Origin: Escherichia phage vB_EcoM_LNA1
DNA: 64,000 bases
Direction: 5' to 3' (one strand)
Sequence record: MZ311863.1
Position 1 is the first letter of the stretch. Each line of letters begins with the position of its first letter. Under the pieces are notes generated by a model that worked only from the letters and a program-made list of their open reading frames with translations, made no database searches and had not been told where the DNA came from. A program made the position numbers and the translations under genes. Shown in pieces: positions 3,086 through 49,334 of the stretch.

Positions 3086-3585
3086 TGGCTGAAGTTATCT
3101 CTATTTCAAATGCTACACGAGTGCATTCGTATAGAGGTGTTCTTATTATCACTGACAAATTATCTGTAGAGGCTGGCTCAAGGGTTAGCCTTTCAGGTTA
3201 TGTAAGTGATGGTGGAGCCTCTGACGTTTTCACTATTTGCAGGTTACTTGATGCTCCAATGAGTGGAAAACCGTTTATTTCAGGAAATTGTAGTGAAATT
3301 GTTAAAATTCCATTTGACAGTTCATGCCTTTTGGGTGTAAAGTTATATAACTGCGAGAATAAACGTATCAATGTTAATAGCATTGAAGCCGCTTTCATTA
3401 CCCTCGACACTGCATTTCAATCTCCAATGACAGTTAATAAAGAAACAAACAGACTTGAATACATTTTTTCACAAAATGATTACAAAGTACTTGTCAAAGG
3501 CAAAGTTTATGATATGATTGTAAATGTGGTAGATGAATCTGGTAACCATTCAACAGTCCTTAAACAAAAAGTAAGGTTTAATTAA
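3085..3585 (+). CDS. hypothetical head-module protein
   Basis: 166-aa ORF, start overlaps portal stop (ATGA coupling). Confidence 0.3.
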   Translation: MAEVISISNATRVHSYRGVLIITDKLSVEAGSRVSLSGYVSDGGASDVFTICRLLDAPMSGKPFISGNCSEIVKIPFDSSCLLGVKLYNCENKRINVNSIEAAFITLDTAFQSPMTVNKETNRLEYIFSQNDYKVLVKGKVYDMIVNVVDESGNHSTVLKQKVRFN

Positions 3586-8155: not shown

Positions 8156-8729
8156 AAAAGGTCTAGTTAGAACCTTAGTGGATGTTATTGGTCACAGACT
8201 GGCTCGTGATAAAAATAATAGACCAAATGTAATTAGAGCTTACCCTTCTGATAACTCAAATGACAAAGGTTTAAAACCTGACCAGCCATTTATTACCGTA
8301 TACTGTCAAGATGCTGCAACACCTTATGGTTGGGTTCTTGATAAGTTTGTTGAGGATGATGTAGTTTGCTACAGAATTGCTTTTCAGATTCCAGTATTAA
8401 TTACGGTAAATGGTAAAGGTGCTCACAGTATTATGCTTGAGCTTAAACAACGATTAGAGATGAGTTCAGTCAGAGATTTAATCCTTGAAGAAACAGGAGC
8501 TACAGTATTAGACACTGGAGCTATCCCGAATGACTATACTTATCTCAATACAGATTTCGAAAATTCTGCACCTCTTGTTGTAACTCTTATAAAAAACTCA
8601 GTCCTGAAAGATGAACGTGGAAGTATTATTGAGCGTGTCATTGTTGATGGTGAGTTGGTTTATGAAGAAGGACAAGAGCCACCAGAATATACTATCCATC
8701 TAGATGTAGACTCCAAAGGGGTAAAATAA
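8130..8729 (+). CDS. hypothetical structural protein (tail completion?)
   Basis: 199-aa ORF preceding sheath-like gene. Confidence 0.3.
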   Translation: MQLETAELEKGLVRTLVDVIGHRLARDKNNRPNVIRAYPSDNSNDKGLKPDQPFITVYCQDAATPYGWVLDKFVEDDVVCYRIAFQIPVLITVNGKGAHSIMLELKQRLEMSSVRDLILEETGATVLDTGAIPNDYTYLNTDFENSAPLVVTLIKNSVLKDERGSIIERVIVDGELVYEEGQEPPEYTIHLDVDSKGVK

Positions 8730-10082
8730 ATGTGGAATCCAATTGTTAATGTAGATATTACATTGAACACCGCAGGAACTACAAGAGAAGGTTTTGGTTT
8801 GCCACTATTCTTAGCTTCAACAGATAACTTTGAAGAAAGAGTGCGTGGTTACACTTCCTTAACTGAAGTTGCTGAAGATTTCGATGAGAATACTGCTGCA
8901 TATAAGGCTGCTAAACAACTTTGGAGTCAGACTCCTAAAGTAACTCAGCTTTATATTGGTAGACGTGCTATGCAGTACACTGTATCAATTCCTAATGCTG
9001 TTGCTGAAAGTACAGACTACTCAATTACTGTAGCTGTTGGTGGTGGAGTCTCTCAACCATTCCAGTACACAGCACAAGATTCAGACACTGCTGAGGTAGT
9101 GTTGCAACAGTTTAAAACACAGATTGAAGCTGACCCAACAATCAAAGATAAGGTTTCTGTGAATGTAACTGGTAGCAATGGCTCTGTCACAATGATTATT
9201 ACCAAAGCTGGTGATAATGACTTTGTGAAAGTAACAACCACAGCACAGACTGTATATATTGCAAGTACAACTGCTGATACAGCAGCAACTGCTCTGGCAG
9301 CTATCGAAGCTTACTCTACTGACTGGTATTTCATTGCAGCAGAAGACAGAACTCAACAGTTTGTCTTAGCAATGGCTTCTGAGATTCAGGCTCGTAAGAA
9401 AATCTTCTTTACGGCTAACTCCGATGTAACAGCCCTACAAGGTACAGAATTAGCCAGTGCAAATGATGTTCCAGCACAGCTTGCTAAGAATATGTACACT
9501 CGTACAGTTTGCTTGTGGCATCACGCAGCAGCAGAAGATTATCCAGAGATGGCATACATTGCTTATGGTGCTCCATATGATGCAGGCTCAATTGCTTGGG
9601 GTAATGCTCAGCTAACTGGCGTAGCAGCTTCTCTACAACCATCTAATCAGAGACCTCTGACAAGTATTCAGAAGTCTGCTTTAGATGTACGTCACTGTAA
9701 CTTTATTGACCTTGATGGTGGTGTTCCAGTGGTTCGTAGAGGGATTACTTCTGGTGGGGAATGGATTGATATCGTCCGTGGCGTTGACTGGTTAGAATCA
9801 GACCTGAAAACTTCTCTGAGGGACTTGCTAATTAACCAGAAGGGTGGTAAGATTACTTATGATGATACTGGTATTACCCGTATTCGTCAAGTCATTGAAA
9901 CCTCTCTACAAAGAGCAGTCAACAGAAACTTCCTGTCATCTTACACAGTTAATGTTCCTAAAACCTCTCAAGTTGCTTTGGCAGACAAGAAAGCTCGTAT
10001 CCTGAAAGATGTTACCTTCGCAGGTATCTTAGCAGGGGCTATCTTGGATGTTGACTTGAAAGGTACAGTGGCTTACGAATAA
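8730..10082 (+). CDS. tail sheath protein (putative)
   Basis: 450-aa ORF immediately upstream of tube-like gene, chaperones and tape measure; synteny-based. Confidence 0.45.
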   Translation: MWNPIVNVDITLNTAGTTREGFGLPLFLASTDNFEERVRGYTSLTEVAEDFDENTAAYKAAKQLWSQTPKVTQLYIGRRAMQYTVSIPNAVAESTDYSITVAVGGGVSQPFQYTAQDSDTAEVVLQQFKTQIEADPTIKDKVSVNVTGSNGSVTMIITKAGDNDFVKVTTTAQTVYIASTTADTAATALAAIEAYSTDWYFIAAEDRTQQFVLAMASEIQARKKIFFTANSDVTALQGTELASANDVPAQLAKNMYTRTVCLWHHAAAEDYPEMAYIAYGAPYDAGSIAWGNAQLTGVAASLQPSNQRPLTSIQKSALDVRHCNFIDLDGGVPVVRRGITSGGEWIDIVRGVDWLESDLKTSLRDLLINQKGGKITYDDTGITRIRQVIETSLQRAVNRNFLSSYTVNVPKTSQVALADKKARILKDVTFAGILAGAILDVDLKGTVAYE

Positions 10083-10097
10083 TAGAGGTAAATTGGA

Positions 10098-10544
10098 ATG
10101 GCTATGTATCAGCAATATTCCCCTAAAGACGTTGTATGTAGCTGGAATGGTATTGCCATTGAAGGCTTTGCCCCAGATTCATTCTTGCGTCTACAGAGAA
10201 CATCACCGCTTGTGACACCAGTTGTTGGTGCAGGTGGTCAGGTTGCTCTGACAAGAAATGCAGACAAGACAGGTACTATTGAGATTGAGTTAATGCAGAC
10301 TTCTCTCTCTAACCAGATGCTTTCTGCAATTCAAGCTAAACAAGACAATATGGAACTTGAAGAAGATATCTCTTCTAACTTCGTAATCTACGACCCATCA
10401 GGCTCTGTTCTGGCAACTGGTATTAATGCTTGGTTGCAGGAGTTACCACAGATTGAACTTGGTCGTGACCAGAACTCTAAAACTTGGATTTTTGGTTGTG
10501 AGAAGCTAGAATACACTTCTACAATTCCAGCGTCAAGTGTTTAA
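10098..10544 (+). CDS. tail tube protein (putative)
   Basis: 148-aa ORF between sheath-like gene and chaperone pair; followed by strong terminator. Confidence 0.45.
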   Translation: MAMYQQYSPKDVVCSWNGIAIEGFAPDSFLRLQRTSPLVTPVVGAGGQVALTRNADKTGTIEIELMQTSLSNQMLSAIQAKQDNMELEEDISSNFVIYDPSGSVLATGINAWLQELPQIELGRDQNSKTWIFGCEKLEYTSTIPASSV

Positions 10545-10556
10545 TAAATCCTATAA

Positions 10557-10588
10557 GGGGGAGACTTTAAAAGGTCTTCCCCTTTTTT
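10557..10588 (+). terminator. rho-independent terminator
   Basis: GGGGGAGAC / GTCTTCCCC 9-bp stem (one G.U), 8-nt loop, then TTTTTT. Confidence 0.7.
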
Positions 10589-10617
10589 GTTTCTTTTAAA
10601 AGTATTAAGGAATCACA

Positions 10618-11016
10618 ATGAAAACAGAATCTAGAGTAATTAACGGTAAGAAAGTGAATATCATTCTGCTTGGGGCAAGAGATGGTATTAAGATGTCTAT
10701 GAAGTTGGGTAAAATTGTTGTTCCAACTTTTGCACAGATGCTATCAAGTCTGACTGACAAGGGTAAGAAAGAAGCTCCAATGGTTCCATTTAAAGAGCTT
10801 GTTGAAGCTTGTTTTGACAGAATTGAAGAAATTAACCTTGAAGAAATGGCAACTCTGTTATTTCAAGGGGCAACTGTTGACGACTTCCCACTTAATATTG
10901 ATACGTACTTCCAAGCAAACTACGGTGAATTTATTGATTACTTAGCATTTGCGCTGGAGGCAAACTTCGGAAGTTTTTTCGAAGCAAGCATTTTCAAAAG
11001 CCTAACTTCTCAGTAA
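10618..11016 (+). CDS. tail assembly chaperone (gpG-like)
   Basis: 132-aa ORF upstream of tape measure; ends just after a TTTTTTC slippery heptamer. Confidence 0.5.
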   Translation: MKTESRVINGKKVNIILLGARDGIKMSMKLGKIVVPTFAQMLSSLTDKGKKEAPMVPFKELVEACFDRIEEINLEEMATLLFQGATVDDFPLNIDTYFQANYGEFIDYLAFALEANFGSFFEASIFKSLTSQ

Positions 11017-11257
11017 ACATGGGTAACACTCTACAGACACCACTAACTGATGCTGCTGTAGAGGCAACCTATGAAGAAGCAGACGAGATGAAATTTGTGC
11101 TTGCTATTTATGGTATGGAAGGGTGTAAAGAAACACTTGACCAACTCTTTGCTATGACATTCTCTGATTTATTATCATTGAGACAATTTCTTGAGATTCA
11201 GAGGTCGTATAAAGAGGAAATTGCTTACAACGAACTTAGAAGAGCAGGAAAAATGTA

Positions 11258-11258
<1 letters not shown>
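10618..11258 (+). CDS. tail assembly chaperone frameshift fusion product (gpGT-like), predicted
   Basis: Joining 10618..10979 to 10980..11258 after a -1 shift gives a continuous ~213-aa product; canonical position between tube and tape measure. Confidence 0.4.
10974..10980 (+). other. -1 programmed ribosomal frameshift slippery site (T TTT TTC)
   Basis: X XXY YYZ heptamer in the 0 frame of the chaperone ORF; the -1 frame is open from here through the downstream ORF 11019..11258. Confidence 0.5.
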
Positions 11259-19289
<8,031 letters not shown>

Positions 19290-20486: not shown

Positions 20487-22838
20487 ATGGCAGATTACAA
20501 GTTGAGTGAATTAAACTCAATTGATACAATTCGTTCAGACGACCTCCTTCATGTCAGGGTTAAAAAGAGACCTGAAATGCTGGGCGATGAAGACCGTCGA
20601 ATGACCTATCAAGACTTCTTAGCATCTTTTAAACTAGAAAGATTTGTCCAGATTGCTGGTAGCACTATGACGGGTGACTTAGGAATTGTCAAGTTACTTT
20701 ATGGTGGTAAGGCAGTATTTGACCCTACAGGTGCTTCTGAGATTGCTGTTGGGGATGTTTTAAAGACTTTTAAAATCAACGCAAACGGCCTTAGACTAAC
20801 TATTGCAGATGCTTCAAGGTCAGCAACTGTTTATCATACTCTGAATAAGCCAAGTCCTAATGAACTTGGGATGAGAACTAATGAAGAGAATGACGCAAGA
20901 TACTCAAGATTAGCTGTAAATAACACATTTAGAGGTACTCAAGCTATTCTCTCTGACAATGAAGCTCTTATTGTTAAGAATATTACACAAGGAATGCCGC
21001 TGTATATTCGTGGTCAAGATGCAGATGGTACTAATAGGTGGTATCTAGGCAATGATAATAGGGGTACAGATAATCTGGTTATCAAAAATGTCAAATCCGG
21101 TGCGTATTTAGCTATTTTGGATAACCTAATCTCTGTGAACAAATCAATCCAAATCACTGGTCAAGTTCAACCTTCTAACTTCTCTAACTTAGATGCTAGA
21201 TACTTTACTCAGACAGCAGCTAATCAGAGATTTGCGCAGCTAGTTGGTAATAACACATTCAGTGGTTTAAACACATTCAACCAACTAAGTGTTTTCAAAA
21301 AAGATGGTGAAGCAATTAGGCTACAGAATGCCAATGCTGCACAACCATTGTACATTAAGGCGATTGATAGCACAGGTGTCAACAGATGGTACATTGGTAA
21401 TAGTAACGAAGGTGATAACGTAGCTCTAGAAAACTACAAAACTAGTGGCAAGATTACTGTAGGGACAAGTGTTAATATCAATAAAACACTAACTGTAACT
21501 GGTCAAGTTCAACCTTCTGACTGGACTAACATTGACTCTCGTTATGTTCTTATCGGTTCATACGCAAATCTTGCTAAGAAGAATGAAGCTAACACATTCA
21601 CTTTACAGCAGAATATTCAATCTGATGGTGAAGCATTAAGAATCTACAGCAAGGCTCAGAATAATTCTTCTTACATTGTTGGTAAGAATACTGATAACAC
21701 AAATAAGTGGTTTATCGGTTGTGGTACTAATGGTTCTGGTACGGCATCATTCCATAACTACTTGACTGGTGCAAGACTCGATTTAGCTGACGAAGTTCTT
21801 CTGTCTAAATCTCTACAGATTACTGGACAGGTAAAACCTTCTGATTGGTCTAACTTAGATGCTAGATACTTCACTCAGTCAGCAGCTAATCAGAGATTCA
21901 TGGTTGCAGGTTCTACAGGAGAAGCTACAGAGCAGAATGCAGATGGTGTGGCATGGAACGCTAAAACAGGCTTATATAATGTAACCTCAACAAATGCTGA
22001 TTACACAGCACTTGTGTTTCAAATGTATCAGGCGGTGCCATCTTCTACTGCCTGTGCGCAACTAAAGTTCCAGTATAAAAATGGTGGGATGTGGTACAGA
22101 ACATCTGTAGACAGTAAAGGTTTTGAGGCTAAGTGGTCTAAGGTTTACACAGAGGCTCAGAAGCCAACCCCTTCAGAGCTTGGTGCATACACTAAAACTG
22201 AAACTGACCAGAAGATTGCACAGGCAGTAAGTGACTCTACAGACCTTAACAAAATCTATCCAGTAGGTATTGTAACGTGGTTTAACAGTAATGTTGACCC
22301 TAATACAGCACTTCCTGGTCTAACTTGGACGTACCTCAACAATGGTGTTGGTAGAACTATCAGAATTGCAGCAGCAAACGGTTCAGATGTTGCTACAACT
22401 GGTGGTTCAGACTCTGTGACGTTAGCTGTTGGGAACTTGCCTTCACACACTCACAGTTTTTCTGCTACCACTTCATCTTTTAACTACGGTACAAAATACA
22501 CTAACACAACTGGTGCTCACGCTCACTCTGTAAGTGGCTATACTTCATCTGCTGGTCACCACAACCACGCTATCTCGTGGATTGGTCAGAACTCTACACA
22601 CTATTCTGGTGGTGGTGGTGGTAGAATCGGTACAGGTCCGGGTTACACTGATGGGGGTGGTGACCACGCGCATTCAATTAGTGGTACTGCCGCCTATGCT
22701 GGTGACCATGCTCACAGTGTTGGTATTGGTGCTCACAGCCACACAGTTAGTGGTAACACTGGTGGTACAGGTTCTGGTTCAGCATTTAGTGTTACTAACC
22801 AGTTCTACAAGTTAATGGCTTGGGTAAGAACTGCTTAA
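20487..22838 (+). CDS. long tail fibre protein with three ~110-aa tandem repeats and His-rich (HxH) tip
   Basis: Start moved to ATG at 20487 (AAGAGG SD); the track's upstream extension overlaps the previous gene and the terminator. Repeats at about 21153, 21495, 21819; C-terminal HxH boxes. Confidence 0.65.
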   Translation: MADYKLSELNSIDTIRSDDLLHVRVKKRPEMLGDEDRRMTYQDFLASFKLERFVQIAGSTMTGDLGIVKLLYGGKAVFDPTGASEIAVGDVLKTFKINANGLRLTIADASRSATVYHTLNKPSPNELGMRTNEENDARYSRLAVNNTFRGTQAILSDNEALIVKNITQGMPLYIRGQDADGTNRWYLGNDNRGTDNLVIKNVKSGAYLAILDNLISVNKSIQITGQVQPSNFSNLDARYFTQTAANQRFAQLVGNNTFSGLNTFNQLSVFKKDGEAIRLQNANAAQPLYIKAIDSTGVNRWYIGNSNEGDNVALENYKTSGKITVGTSVNINKTLTVTGQVQPSDWTNIDSRYVLIGSYANLAKKNEANTFTLQQNIQSDGEALRIYSKAQNNSSYIVGKNTDNTNKWFIGCGTNGSGTASFHNYLTGARLDLADEVLLSKSLQITGQVKPSDWSNLDARYFTQSAANQRFMVAGSTGEATEQNADGVAWNAKTGLYNVTSTNADYTALVFQMYQAVPSSTACAQLKFQYKNGGMWYRTSVDSKGFEAKWSKVYTEAQKPTPSELGAYTKTETDQKIAQAVSDSTDLNKIYPVGIVTWFNSNVDPNTALPGLTWTYLNNGVGRTIRIAAANGSDVATTGGSDSVTLAVGNLPSHTHSFSATTSSFNYGTKYTNTTGAHAHSVSGYTSSAGHHNHAISWIGQNSTHYSGGGGGRIGTGPGYTDGGGDHAHSISGTAAYAGDHAHSVGIGAHSHTVSGNTGGTGSGSAFSVTNQFYKLMAWVRTA

Positions 22839-48099: not shown

Positions 48100-49047
48100 T
48101 GTAGAGCGTTTTTATCACCATACCATAACGAAGATGGTGAAGAGTTTTATGTAGGTCGTGCTAACATTGGTGCTGTATCTTTGAACTTACCAATGATTTA
48201 CCAGTATTCTAAAGAGAATGGCTTAGATTTCTGGAAAGAGCTTGATAAGTACCTAGAAATGATTCGCAGCTTCCACAAGAAACGTTACGAAATGATTGCT
48301 AATATGCCAGCAAGTTCTAACCCTCTTGCATTCACACAAGGTGGCCTGTACAAAGGGAATAAGAAACCTACTGACAAGGTTGGCTGGGATATCGTGAAGT
48401 CCTTCACAGCTTCTTTTGGGGTTACTGCGCTTGATGAGCTATCTGTTCTTGCTGAAGGTAAACGACTTCATGAAGTTGGAAGCTGTAGTTTTGCATATGA
48501 TGTTCTGGAATATATCAACATGAAGACTGAAGAGTTTAAAAATGAAGATGGCTTCTTATATGCAGTCTATGGCACTCCAGCAGAATCACTTTGTGGAACT
48601 CAGCTAAAACAGTTCAGAGATATGTTTGGCGTTATCAAAGGCGTTTCTGACAAGGAATACTTTACAAACAGTTTCCATATGAATGTTGCAGCAGACATTA
48701 CACCATTTGAGAAGCAGGACTTAGAAGAACCTTTCTTCCATATCTGTAGAGGCGGCAGAATCCAGTATGTAAGAGTGGCTAATCCAGAAAACTTATCAGC
48801 ACTTAAGAGTTGTATTACAAGAGGGATGTTGAAAGGTTTCTATCAGGGACTTAACTTTGACTTAGCAATCTGTGAACATTGTGGTAACAGACCAAAGGCT
48901 GATGTTGAAGAATGTGATGTTTGCCATTCACATGATATTTCTGTGATTAACAGGGTGTGCGGATATCTGGGATGGACTAAGATTAAAGGTGAATCCCGAA
49001 TGAACGATGCAAAAATCGCTGAGATTCGTGACAGAATTTCTATGTAA
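48100..49047 (+). CDS. nrdD: anaerobic ribonucleotide reductase (class III), exon 2
   Basis: Begins CRAFLSPY...; contains glycyl-radical motif RVCGYLG near C-terminus; frame opens 8 codons upstream after a TAG. Confidence 0.75.
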   Translation, partial: CRAFLSPYHNEDGEEFYVGRANIGAVSLNLPMIYQYSKENGLDFWKELDKYLEMIRSFHKKRYEMIANMPASSNPLAFTQGGLYKGNKKPTDKVGWDIVKSFTASFGVTALDELSVLAEGKRLHEVGSCSFAYDVLEYINMKTEEFKNEDGFLYAVYGTPAESLCGTQLKQFRDMFGVIKGVSDKEYFTNSFHMNVAADITPFEKQDLEEPFFHICRGGRIQYVRVANPENLSALKSCITRGMLKGFYQGLNFDLAICEHCGNRPKADVEECDVCHSHDISVINRVCGYLGWTKIKGESRMNDAKIAEIRDRISM

Positions 49048-49056
49048 AACTTGACA

Positions 49057-49096
49057 AGGTGATGCGGGTCTTGATAGGCTTGCATCACCTTTTTAT
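49057..49096 (+). terminator. rho-independent terminator
   Basis: AGGTGATGC / GCATCACCT 9-bp stem, 16-nt loop, then TTTTT. Confidence 0.55.
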
Positions 49097-49109
49097 TTGG
49101 AGTTACATT

Positions 49110-49334
49110 ATGGACTTGTGGCTTTATGTAGCAGTTTGTGGGATTGTATGTCTGATAATCTTATTTATTCTTGGAGTAATGCGATTTAGAGATATTATAC
49201 AGTCAGATTTTTTGCCTGAGTTTGCCATGATAGTTGGGGTTATTACCCTTTGTGTCTTGGCGGTGTTCTATTCATACAAAACTGTGATATGGATGGAGGC
49301 AAACAATTGTGTAAAAAACTCATCAGCACCGTGA
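49110..49334 (+). CDS. small membrane protein (2 TM, hypothetical)
   Basis: ATG at 49110 with GGAG SD; the track's upstream extension covers the terminator. Confidence 0.3.
   Translation: MDLWLYVAVCGIVCLIILFILGVMRFRDIIQSDFLPEFAMIVGVITLCVLAVFYSYKTVIWMEANNCVKNSSAP

What the first reader, a model, noticed from the sequence alone, without database searches (positions are those of the whole stretch)
10974..11258. Programmed -1 frameshift (T TTT TTC) joining the two tail assembly chaperone ORFs
The 132-aa ORF upstream of the tape measure gene contains the slippery heptamer TTTTTTC in the X XXY YYZ register 12 codons before its stop. The -1 frame is open from that point through the next ORF (11019..11258), which has no convincing independent SD. 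This is the conserved gpG/gpGT arrangement of tailed phages, here readable directly from sequence.
Basis: seen in the sequence. Interest (0 to 1): 0.5.

Follow-up and report, generated by a model that had tools for sequence, protein, structure and literature searches.

The report
Phage tail chaperone −1 frameshift site
This is the standard "G/GT" slippery-site frameshift that long-tailed phages use to make a short and a long tail-assembly chaperone, here in a Felix O1-like phage; it is real and strongly conserved but already annotated in close relatives.

Summary
T TTT TTC lies at 10974-10980 in the X XXY YYZ register of the 132-aa chaperone ORF (10618-11016). The −1 frame is open from 10938 to the stop at 11256-11258, giving a 213-aa fusion.

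The window is a Felixounavirus (about 97% identical to Escherichia phage REP11). Gene order is sheath, tube, chaperone, T segment, tape measure.

- Of 60 in-register heptamers in 77 window ORFs, only this one opens a long −1 frame (92 codons; next longest 28).
- The ATG at 11019 has the weakest Shine-Dalgarno pairing of all 57 ORF starts tested.
- The heptamer is invariant across Ounavirinae. It sits in the longest invariant nucleotide run of the locus.
- Relatives at 27-34% identity carry T TTT TTT at the same protein motif.
- Kolesnikvirus genomes have no start codon for 55 codons of the T segment.

The frameshift is already annotated in GenBank for Salmonella phages Mushroom and Meda and Citrobacter phage Michonne, and described in genome announcements. 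I found no experimental proof in this lineage.

Two extras are new: a covarying hairpin just after the G stop codon (11006-11079), and an SD-like GGAGG 13 nt upstream of the heptamer. Verdict: supported, ordinary, low interest.

The parts
10618..11016 (+). Gene 'G': 132-aa tail assembly (tape measure) chaperone, the product of normal translation
   Evidence: ORF. Pfam PF21822 Phage_TAC_15 E=2.8e-19. phrog_1613 tail assembly chaperone E=2.6e-48. AAGGA at 10607-10611, anti-SD duplex -6.1 kcal/mol.
10974..10980 (+). Slippery heptamer T TTT TTC (X XXY YYZ), the proposed site of the -1 tandem tRNA-Phe slip
   Evidence: Register checked. Invariant in all Ounavirinae loci examined. It lies in the longest invariant run (12 nt, 10971-10982) of a 7-lineage alignment of the whole G-T locus; the next longest run is 5 nt. 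U_UU.U_UU.C belongs to the efficient H_HH.U_UU.Y class in E. coli (PMC4066793).
10980..11258 (+). -1 frame 'T' segment: 92 codons plus stop, read after the slip. It includes the 79-codon ORF 11019-11258 that is often annotated as a separate gene.
   Evidence: Translation. phrog_4963 tail assembly chaperone E=2.8e-55. No SD before ATG 11019. The homologous segment lacks any start codon in Kolesnikvirus.
10618..11258 (+). Span encoding the 213-aa GT fusion (10618-10980 joined to 10980-11258, with base 10980 read twice)
   Evidence: The same join is annotated in Salmonella phage Meda ('Tape measure chaperone frameshift product') and Mushroom. Phage CL1, with one extra T, encodes exactly this 213-aa architecture in a single frame.
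10956..10960 (+). SD-like GGAGG 13 nt 5' of the heptamer; a candidate upstream stimulator (inferred, not universal)
   Evidence: Anti-SD duplex -9.3 kcal/mol. A duplex of -7.4 or stronger is present in 8 of 11 lineage representatives, against 2.9% of control positions at -7 or stronger. It is absent in phiEa21-4, L040 and L044. Stimulatory SD-like elements are sought 6-17 nt upstream (PMC4066793).
11006..11079 (+). Conserved extended RNA hairpin starting at the G stop codon. Outer stem 11006-10/11075-79; stem A 11018-24/11067-73, which contains ATG 11019-21; stem B 11032-36/11056-60; stem C 11038-44/11049-55.
   Evidence: MFE -23.7 kcal/mol, z = -3.47. Top 1.7% of 81-nt windows in the 64 kb. 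On 13 distinct sequences, 91% of cells are paired against 32-61.5% in slid controls, and 4 pairs show compensatory changes. It starts 25-37 nt after the heptamer, so it is not a canonical stimulator.
11258..13501 (+). Tape measure protein gene (747 aa). Its ATG overlaps the T stop codon (TAATG).
   Evidence: Pfam PF20155 TMP_3 E=1.9e-16. phrog_4036. AGGA SD, -5.1 kcal/mol.
10098..10544 (+). Tail tube-type virion structural protein gene, immediately upstream (context)
   Evidence: phrog_280 E=2.4e-47 and Pfam PF11681. It follows the tail sheath gene 8730-10082 (phrog_205).

Best explanation
This is a programmed -1 ribosomal frameshift of the lambda gpG/gpGT type in a Felix O1-like myovirus. Most ribosomes translate 10618-11016 and release the 132-aa chaperone G. 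A small fraction slip back one base when tRNA-Phe occupies both TTT (P site, 10975-77) and TTC (A site, 10978-80). The two tRNAs re-pair with TTT TTT (10974-79) and translation continues at CGA (10980-82) in the -1 frame to TAA 11256-58. The result is a 213-aa GT fusion with junction ...NFGSFF|RSKHFQKP.... By analogy with lambda, many copies of G and a few of GT coat the tape measure protein encoded just downstream, and the T part recruits the tube protein. Neither chaperone ends up in the virion. Shown here: the sequence anatomy, the family membership of G, the absence of initiation signals for T, and nucleotide-level conservation of the slip site across deep divergence. Inferred: that the slip happens on the ribosome, its efficiency (probably below a few percent; no canonical 3' stimulator is present), and the assembly role.
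For: The heptamer is in register and the -1 frame is open for 92 codons. It is unique among 60 in-register heptamers in the window. G is a Phage_TAC_15 protein lying between tube and tape measure genes. ATG 11019 has the weakest SD pairing of 57 ORF starts. T TTT TTC is invariant in 30 of 30 IMG/VR Ounavirinae loci and in five named lineages whose GT identity falls to 36-42%. The only blastn match between this locus and the Erwinia phages is a 41-nt island, window 10963-11003, at 92.7% identity. The longest invariant run of the locus is 10971-10982. Five relatives at 27-34% identity have T TTT TTT at the homologous ...NFxSFF motif, with -1 extensions of 91-98 codons ending at the next long ORF. 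From window codon usage, Ser-Phe-Phe would be slippery only about 30% of the time, yet all roughly 10 lineages are. Kolesnikvirus has no start codon for 55 codons of T, and there the annotated 'second chaperone' is a 37-aa stump or is missing. L014 has the ATG changed to ATA. The motif class is efficient in E. coli (PMC4066793). Independent annotators call the same frameshift (PMC4591319, PMC4319497, PMC5543628).
Against: There is no protein-level evidence for GT in this lineage, here or in the papers I could search. No canonical stimulatory structure lies 5-9 nt downstream: the fold of +1 to +60 gives z = +1.17, the consensus fold of divergent lineages is weak, and there is no Rfam match. Efficiency could therefore be very low; motif-only values in E. 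coli reporters are about 0.1-0.5% (PMC4066793). In this genome an ATG sits 2 nt after the G stop, so some free T made by termination-reinitiation cannot be excluded. Most public records, including the Felix O1 RefSeq record, annotate two separate genes.
Confidence: 0.9

Rival explanations
1. G and T are two independent proteins. T (79 aa) starts at ATG 11019, either by de novo initiation or by termination-reinitiation of ribosomes finishing G two bases upstream. The heptamer is then incidental.
For: The window has an in-frame ATG 2 nt after the G stop codon. Most GenBank and RefSeq records annotate two CDS. SD-independent translational coupling over such short distances is established in bacteria (general knowledge).
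Against: There is no SD, with the weakest pairing of 57 ORF starts. The ATG lies inside stem A of a conserved hairpin. The ATG is not conserved: it is ATA in L014, it is shifted to other codons in L034 and Michonne, and no ATG, GTG or TTG occurs for 55 codons in Kolesnikvirus, while the T amino-acid sequence and the heptamer are conserved. The 13 -1-frame codons between the heptamer and the ATG stay open and conserved (RSKHFQKP).
Confidence: 0.06
2. The fusion arises by transcriptional slippage. RNA polymerase adds one extra U in the T6 run, giving an mRNA in which G and T are in frame, and that mRNA is translated normally.
For: A seventh T gives exactly the same 213-aa protein, as the deposited sequence of phage CL1 shows. 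The site is a homopolymer.
Against: Productive slippage by bacterial RNA polymerase is described for runs of about 9 A or T, matching the 9-10 bp RNA:DNA hybrid (PMC5009743). Six T flanked by AAG and CGA is too short. What is conserved is the triplet register (T TTT TTC or T TTT TTT, always in phase), not run length as such. Related G/GT sites in other phages are non-homopolymeric, such as G GGA AAG in lambda (general knowledge; PMC5009743).
Confidence: 0.03
3. It is a chance heptamer with no function: the downstream ORF is non-coding or the arrangement is accidental.
For: In-register heptamers are common, 60 in 77 ORFs. From those counts I calculate about a 7% chance that any one falls in a 25-codon overlap.
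Against: The -1 extension of 92 codons is unique. The T segment is a recognised family (phrog_4963, E=2.8e-55). The heptamer is conserved at synonymous positions across about 10 lineages.
Confidence: 0.01

Closest known systems
Bacteriophage lambda gpG/gpGT -1 frameshift (Levin, Hendrix & Casjens 1993; Xu, Hendrix & Duda 2004, 2013, 2014; summarised in PMC5009743)
   Same: Two overlapping ORFs lie directly upstream of the tape measure gene. [quoted passage not shown] The -1 shift yields a minor long product sharing the N-terminal chaperone domain. The second ORF has no independent start signals. No 3' stimulator is obvious.
   Different: The heptamer is T TTT TTC rather than G GGA AAG. The host phage is a contractile-tailed myovirus, not a siphovirus. 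I did not test sequence similarity to lambda G or T; the Pfam family here is Phage_TAC_15. Efficiency and the G:GT ratio (about 30:1 in lambda) are unknown here.
Annotated frameshifts in the same subfamily: Salmonella phages Mushroom (KP143762) and Meda (MH586731), Citrobacter phages Michonne (NC_028247), Moogle and Mijalis
   Same: Homologous genes, the same heptamer and the same junction. Meda is 97.8% identical to the window over 10560-11300 and carries a joined CDS called 'Tape measure chaperone frameshift product'. Mushroom has a joined CDS. Michonne has a joined CDS noted 'ribosomal slippage'. The announcements state a -1 translational frameshift (PMC4591319, PMC4319497, PMC5543628).
   Different: Nothing material. 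These are predictions by annotation, not experiments. Most other records of the genus, including Felix O1 itself, still list two separate chaperone genes.
Phage P2 gpE/gpE+E' tail chaperone frameshift (myovirus example)
   Same: A contractile-tailed phage uses a -1 frameshift in the chaperone gene upstream of the tape measure gene. From memory, P2 uses a T-rich heptamer (T TTT TTG); I did not check this here.
   Different: Homology to the P2 proteins was not tested here. P2-type efficiency is reported as 2-3 times that of lambda (PMC5009743). The value here is unknown.
E. coli dnaX and IS911-type -1 frameshift signals with an upstream SD-like stimulator
   Same: A GGAGG with strong anti-SD pairing lies 13 nt 5' of the heptamer, within the 6-17 nt range used for such stimulators.
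   Different: There is no hairpin or pseudoknot at 5-9 nt downstream. The SD-like element is missing in 3 of 11 lineages, and it also encodes conserved Leu-Glu-Ala, so its conservation may be due to protein coding.

Membership tests
gpG/gpGT-type tail assembly chaperone programmed frameshift (Xu, Hendrix & Duda 2004) | Two consecutive, overlapping ORFs located between the major tail/tube gene and the tape measure gene | tested here: met
   Order is sheath 8730-10082, tube 10098-10544, G 10618-11016, T 10938/11019-11258, tape measure 11258-13501.
gpG/gpGT-type tail assembly chaperone programmed frameshift (Xu, Hendrix & Duda 2004) | The upstream ORF encodes a tail assembly chaperone | tested here: met
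   Pfam PF21822 Phage_TAC_15, 70.3 bits against a cut-off of 22. phrog_1613 and phrog_3840.
gpG/gpGT-type tail assembly chaperone programmed frameshift (Xu, Hendrix & Duda 2004) | [quoted passage not shown] | tested here: met
   T TTT TTC at 10974-10980, 11 codons before the stop. The overlap spans 10938-11016.
gpG/gpGT-type tail assembly chaperone programmed frameshift (Xu, Hendrix & Duda 2004) | The second ORF lacks its own translation initiation signals | tested here: met
   No SD, +0.7 kcal/mol. The start codon is not conserved and is absent in Kolesnikvirus. An ATG does exist in this particular genome.
gpG/gpGT-type tail assembly chaperone programmed frameshift (Xu, Hendrix & Duda 2004) | The arrangement and slip site are conserved among relatives despite sequence divergence | tested here: met
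   Conserved in 30 of 30 IMG/VR Ounavirinae loci, five named lineages, and five relatives at 27-34% identity.
gpG/gpGT-type tail assembly chaperone programmed frameshift (Xu, Hendrix & Duda 2004) | The fusion protein is actually made at a low, fixed ratio to the short product | not testable with these tools
   This needs western blot or mass spectrometry, ribosome profiling, or a reporter assay. I found no paper reporting it for Felix O1-like phages.
gpG/gpGT-type tail assembly chaperone programmed frameshift (Xu, Hendrix & Duda 2004) | Both products are required for tail assembly and absent from virions; G binds the tape measure protein and T binds the tube protein | not testable with these tools
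   Inferred from lambda (PMC5009743).
Canonical bacterial -1 PRF cassette (heptamer plus a 3' hairpin or pseudoknot at 5-9 nt, as in dnaX and IS3) | A stable, conserved RNA structure beginning 5-9 nt downstream of the heptamer | tested here: not met
   The fold of 10981-11040 is -3.4 kcal/mol, z = +1.17. No such helix appears in the consensus fold. The conserved hairpin starts 25-37 nt downstream.
Canonical bacterial -1 PRF cassette (heptamer plus a 3' hairpin or pseudoknot at 5-9 nt, as in dnaX and IS3) | An SD-like element 6-17 nt upstream of the heptamer | tested here: inconclusive
   GGAGG at 10956-10960, -9.3 kcal/mol. Present in 8 of 11 lineages and absent in 3. It is confounded by coding for Leu-Glu-Ala; Glu GAG makes up 34% of Glu codons in the window.

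The most novel reading that the evidence does not exclude
Frameshift-dependent expression of T may be shaped in this phage group by two non-canonical RNA elements rather than a classical 3' stimulator. One is an internal SD-like GGAGG 13 nt upstream that would raise slippage. The other is a covarying hairpin of about 75 nt that begins at the G stop codon and buries every in-frame ATG of the first 20 T codons. The hairpin would block reinitiation or independent synthesis of free T, or shield the rarely translated 240-nt stretch ahead of the tape measure gene, so that T is made only as GT.
Probability: 0.3. Interest if true: 0.35.

Novelty: already known. Interest (0 to 1): 0.15.

Why it matters
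The practical value is for annotation. Most Felix O1-type genomes, including the RefSeq record of Felix O1, list two separate 'tail assembly chaperone' genes. The Erwinia relatives list a 37-aa stump or nothing. The evidence here says the second product is a 213-aa frameshift fusion. These phages are used in Salmonella and E. coli biocontrol and in engineering, so anyone recoding or refactoring the tail module must keep the heptamer and its register. The conserved hairpin after the G stop codon and the upstream SD-like element are small new leads on how a stimulator-less G/GT frameshift is tuned. The phenomenon itself is textbook and would not surprise a specialist.

Tried and rejected
- **Canonical 3' stimulator.** Folding 60-100 nt after the heptamer in the window and three other lineages gave nothing significant at 5-9 nt. 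RNAalifold on seven divergent lineages gave -8.4 kcal/mol with a positive covariation term. Rejected.
- **Rfam.** A scan of 10500-11400 at E up to 1 gave only three sub-threshold hits, all at the terminator upstream of G.
- **Heptamer-containing helix.** The small helix CUUCGGAA/UUUCGAAG (10965-10984), which contains the heptamer, appears in the consensus fold. It shows only one-sided changes or none, so I do not treat it as an element.
- **Terminator-like site.** The call at 10954-10970 plus the T run is the heptamer itself acting as the 'T tail'. Rejected as a terminator.
- **Solved structures.** A PDB sequence search with the fusion gave no meaningful hit (E=0.62).
- **T-segment homology.** BLASTP of the window T segment against the T segments of the 27-34% relatives gave no significant similarity. 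For those loci only position, frame and length are conserved, not demonstrable T homology.
- **Phage tRNAs.** No tRNA genes lie in the window, so no phage tRNA-Phe is encoded in this stretch.
- **Ribosome-queueing idea.** I considered a terminating ribosome positioning a trailing one on the heptamer. Heptamer-to-stop spacing varies between 11 and 33 codons across lineages. Rejected.
- **L046.** This locus (C CCT TTC, GC-rich) was left out of the conservation argument as too uncertain.
- **Not run.** I did not run structure prediction or the large protein-database searches, because they could not change the verdict.

Full report
**What is in the sequence**

Reading 10400-11500 and translating all three forward frames confirms the observation. 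TTTTTTC occurs once in the region, at 10974-10980. The 132-aa ORF 10618-11016 reads AGT TTT TTC GAA there, so the heptamer is in the X XXY YYZ register (T TTT TTC).

Eleven sense codons follow before TAA at 11014-16. The -1 frame has a stop at 10935-37 and is then open to TAA 11256-58. It contains the 79-codon ORF 11019-11258. A -1 slip on the heptamer gives a 213-aa protein with the junction ...EANFGSFF|RSKHFQKPNFSVNMGNT....

**Context**

The window is a Felix O1-like myovirus. Region 8700-13600 is about 97% identical to Escherichia phage REP11 and to many Felixounavirus genomes; 297 phage records match.

The gene order is:
- tail sheath, 8730-10082 (phrog_205)
- tube-type structural protein, 10098-10544 (phrog_280)
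- the 132-aa ORF
- the 79-codon ORF
- tape measure protein, 11258-13501 (Pfam TMP_3, phrog_4036)

The 132-aa ORF is a bona fide tail assembly chaperone: Pfam PF21822 Phage_TAC_15, 70.3 bits against a cut-off of 22. The downstream ORF is phrog_4963, also labelled tail assembly chaperone.

**Is it more than chance?**

I picked 77 non-overlapping ORFs in the window (19,552 codons). They hold 60 in-register XXXYYYZ heptamers with a median -1 extension of 4 codons. The finding is the only one above 28 codons (it has 92) and the only one that reads past its own stop codon. From those counts, any in-register heptamer would fall in the 25-codon overlap about 7% of the time, so this genome alone is suggestive rather than decisive.

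The anti-SD duplex upstream of ATG 11019 is +0.7 kcal/mol. That is weaker than all 57 ORF starts of at least 100 aa (median -6.1) and weaker than the median random ATG at -2.2.

**Comparative evidence**

A sensitive blastn of 10560-11300 shows that in the Erwinia phages (Kolesnikvirus) the only detectable match is a 41-nt island at 92.7% identity. It corresponds to window 10963-11003, the heptamer and its flanks.

I extracted the loci and 36 IMG/VR contigs found with an alignment of the fusion proteins. The results are:
- T TTT TTC is in register in 30 of 30 Ounavirinae contigs. It is also in register in Michonne (Mooglevirus), SUSP2 (Suspvirus), phiEa21-4 (Kolesnikvirus) and Pectobacterium phage Arno162. 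GT identity to the window falls to 42% and 36% in the last two.
- In a 7-lineage alignment of the whole G-T locus, 27% of columns are invariant. The longest invariant run is 12 nt at 10971-10982; the next longest is 5 nt.
- Five more distant contigs (27-34% identity in G) end their chaperone domain with the same ...NFxSFF motif. They carry T TTT TTT in register there, with -1 extensions of 91-98 codons that stop just before the next long ORF.
- With the window's codon usage, Ser/Thr-Phe-Phe would be slippery only about 30% of the time. All roughly ten lineages being slippery argues for selection on the nucleotides. The lineages are not fully independent, so this is a rough argument.

**Independent translation of T**

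The ATG at 11019 is not conserved:
- It is ATA in the Felixounavirus contig L014.
- It sits at different codons in L034 and Michonne.
- Kolesnikvirus has no ATG, GTG or TTG for 55 codons of the T segment, although the T amino-acid sequence is conserved.

Annotators of those Erwinia genomes left the region blank or called a 37-aa stump. This makes free-standing T an unlikely main product.

**Mechanism**

U_UU.U_UU.C and U_UU.U_UU.U belong to the H_HH.U_UU.Y class, which is among the most efficient -1 motifs in E. coli. They are under-represented in E. coli genes. Motif-only efficiencies in reporters are only a few-fold above a background of about 0.05% (PMC4066793).

There is no canonical 3' stimulator. 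The 60 nt after the heptamer fold no better than shuffles (z = +1.17). The consensus fold over divergent lineages is weak, and Rfam finds nothing.

The most likely picture is therefore a low-level lambda-like tandem slip of tRNA-Phe. It would give a large excess of G over GT, as lambda requires (about 30:1; PMC5009743).

Transcriptional slippage is unlikely. It is described for runs of about 9 A or T, matching the 9-10 bp hybrid, and here the triplet register is what is conserved.

(a) GGAGG at 10956-10960 lies 13 nt 5' of the heptamer and pairs with the anti-SD at -9.3 kcal/mol. A comparable element is present in 8 of 11 lineage representatives, against 2.9% of control positions. It is absent in three lineages and overlaps conserved Leu-Glu-Ala codons. 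It is a candidate dnaX-like upstream stimulator, not an established one.

(b) An extended hairpin spans 11006-11079.
- Its stem A (11018-24 with 11067-73) begins 2 nt after the G stop codon and contains ATG 11019.
- It folds at -23.7 kcal/mol (z = -3.47) in the window. It folds at -30.0, -28.3 and -26.8 kcal/mol in SUSP2, L034 and Michonne.
- It is in the top 1.7% of 81-nt windows in the 64 kb.
- On 13 distinct sequences, 91% of cells are paired against 32-61.5% in slid controls. Four pairs have compensatory double changes, and the covariation score is 0.178 against at most 0.058 in slid controls.
- The structure was derived from these sequences, which inflates the comparison, and the sequences are related.
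- It starts 25-37 nt after the heptamer, too far for a classical stimulator.
- The in-frame ATGs of the first 20 T codons (11019 in the window; ATG-CAG in SUSP2, L034 and Michonne) fall in stems A or B. My working idea is that it suppresses reinitiation of T after termination at the G stop, or protects the rarely translated stretch before the tape measure gene. This is inference.
- Kolesnikvirus and Arno162 do not show the same fold.

**What is already known**

The same frameshift is annotated as a joined CDS in Salmonella phage Meda, which is 97.8% identical here ('Tape measure chaperone frameshift product'). It is also annotated in Salmonella phage Mushroom and in Citrobacter phage Michonne ('ribosomal slippage').

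Genome announcements for the FelixO1-like phages Moogle, Michonne and Mijalis state it explicitly and cite Xu, Hendrix & Duda 2004. Most other records, including Felix O1 RefSeq, wV8, SP116 and the ESCO phages, still list two separate genes. I found no paper with protein-level evidence in this lineage.

**Verdict**

The feature is a typical, already annotated member of the gpG/gpGT frameshift class. Confidence is about 0.9 that the 213-aa fusion is made by -1 ribosomal slippage at 10974-10980. Interest is low (0.15). The only modestly new material is the conserved post-stop hairpin and the upstream SD-like element.

Noticed in passing
window 11006-11079: A conserved hairpin with compensatory changes lies inside the T-coding stretch. 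It starts at the G stop codon and encloses ATG 11019. On 13 sequences from Felixounavirus-, Suspvirus- and Mooglevirus-type genomes, 4 pairs covary and 91% of cells are paired against 32-61.5% in slid controls. Its function is unknown and it is too far from the heptamer to be a classical frameshift stimulator.
   Followed up: partly
window 10956-10960: An SD-like GGAGG lies 13 nt upstream of the heptamer (-9.3 kcal/mol with the anti-SD). It is present in 8 of 11 lineages and absent in phiEa21-4, L040 and L044. It overlaps conserved Leu-Glu-Ala codons.
   Followed up: partly
window 10555-10584 (+ T run to 10594): A strong intrinsic-terminator-like hairpin (13 pairs, 6 G-C) followed by TTTTTGTTTCT lies between the tube gene and the chaperone gene. 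It is annotated as a terminator in wV8, Meda and Michonne. It would lower transcription of the chaperone and tape measure genes relative to sheath and tube.
   Followed up: partly
L047 (Escherichia phage CL1, OK040806.1) 654-664: The deposited sequence has seven T instead of six (TTTTTTTC). G and T are therefore one in-frame 213-aa CDS, identical in architecture to the predicted GT fusion. This is probably a homopolymer sequencing error. If real, the phage would make mostly GT.
   Followed up: partly
L014 (IMGVR_UViG_3300045988_004167) about 1902-1904: In this Felixounavirus contig the equivalent of ATG 11019 is ATA. The 'second chaperone gene' has no start there, and the hairpin still folds at -24.0 kcal/mol.
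   Followed up: yes
L004 (phiEa21-4) 1570-1805; L050 (phiEa104) 731-844: Erwinia phage records leave the T segment unannotated or call only a 37-aa fragment as 'tail assembly chaperone', because the segment has no start codon. These look like annotation gaps that the frameshift explains.
   Followed up: yes
window 11256-11260: The T-frame stop and the tape measure start overlap as TAATG, with AGGA 8 nt upstream. Only frameshifted ribosomes terminate there, so most tape measure initiation must be de novo.
   Followed up: no
window 10990-10995: A second, weaker shift-prone motif, the tetramer T_TTC (ATT TTC), lies 5 codons after the heptamer inside the overlap. It is conserved in most lineages but not in Arno162. 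A slip there would give a different junction (...EASIF|QKP...).
   Followed up: no
window about 49015-49137, 22625-22726, 3137-3224: These are the most stable 81-nt RNA folds in the 64 kb (MFE -31.6 to -34 kcal/mol against a mean of -14.2) in the sliding scan. I did not examine them.
   Followed up: no
hit H91, MG065664.1 'Campylobacter phage A132': A record labelled as a Campylobacter jejuni phage encodes a chaperone fusion 97.3% identical to this enterobacterial Felix O1-type phage. The host label or the sample purity looks doubtful.
   Followed up: no
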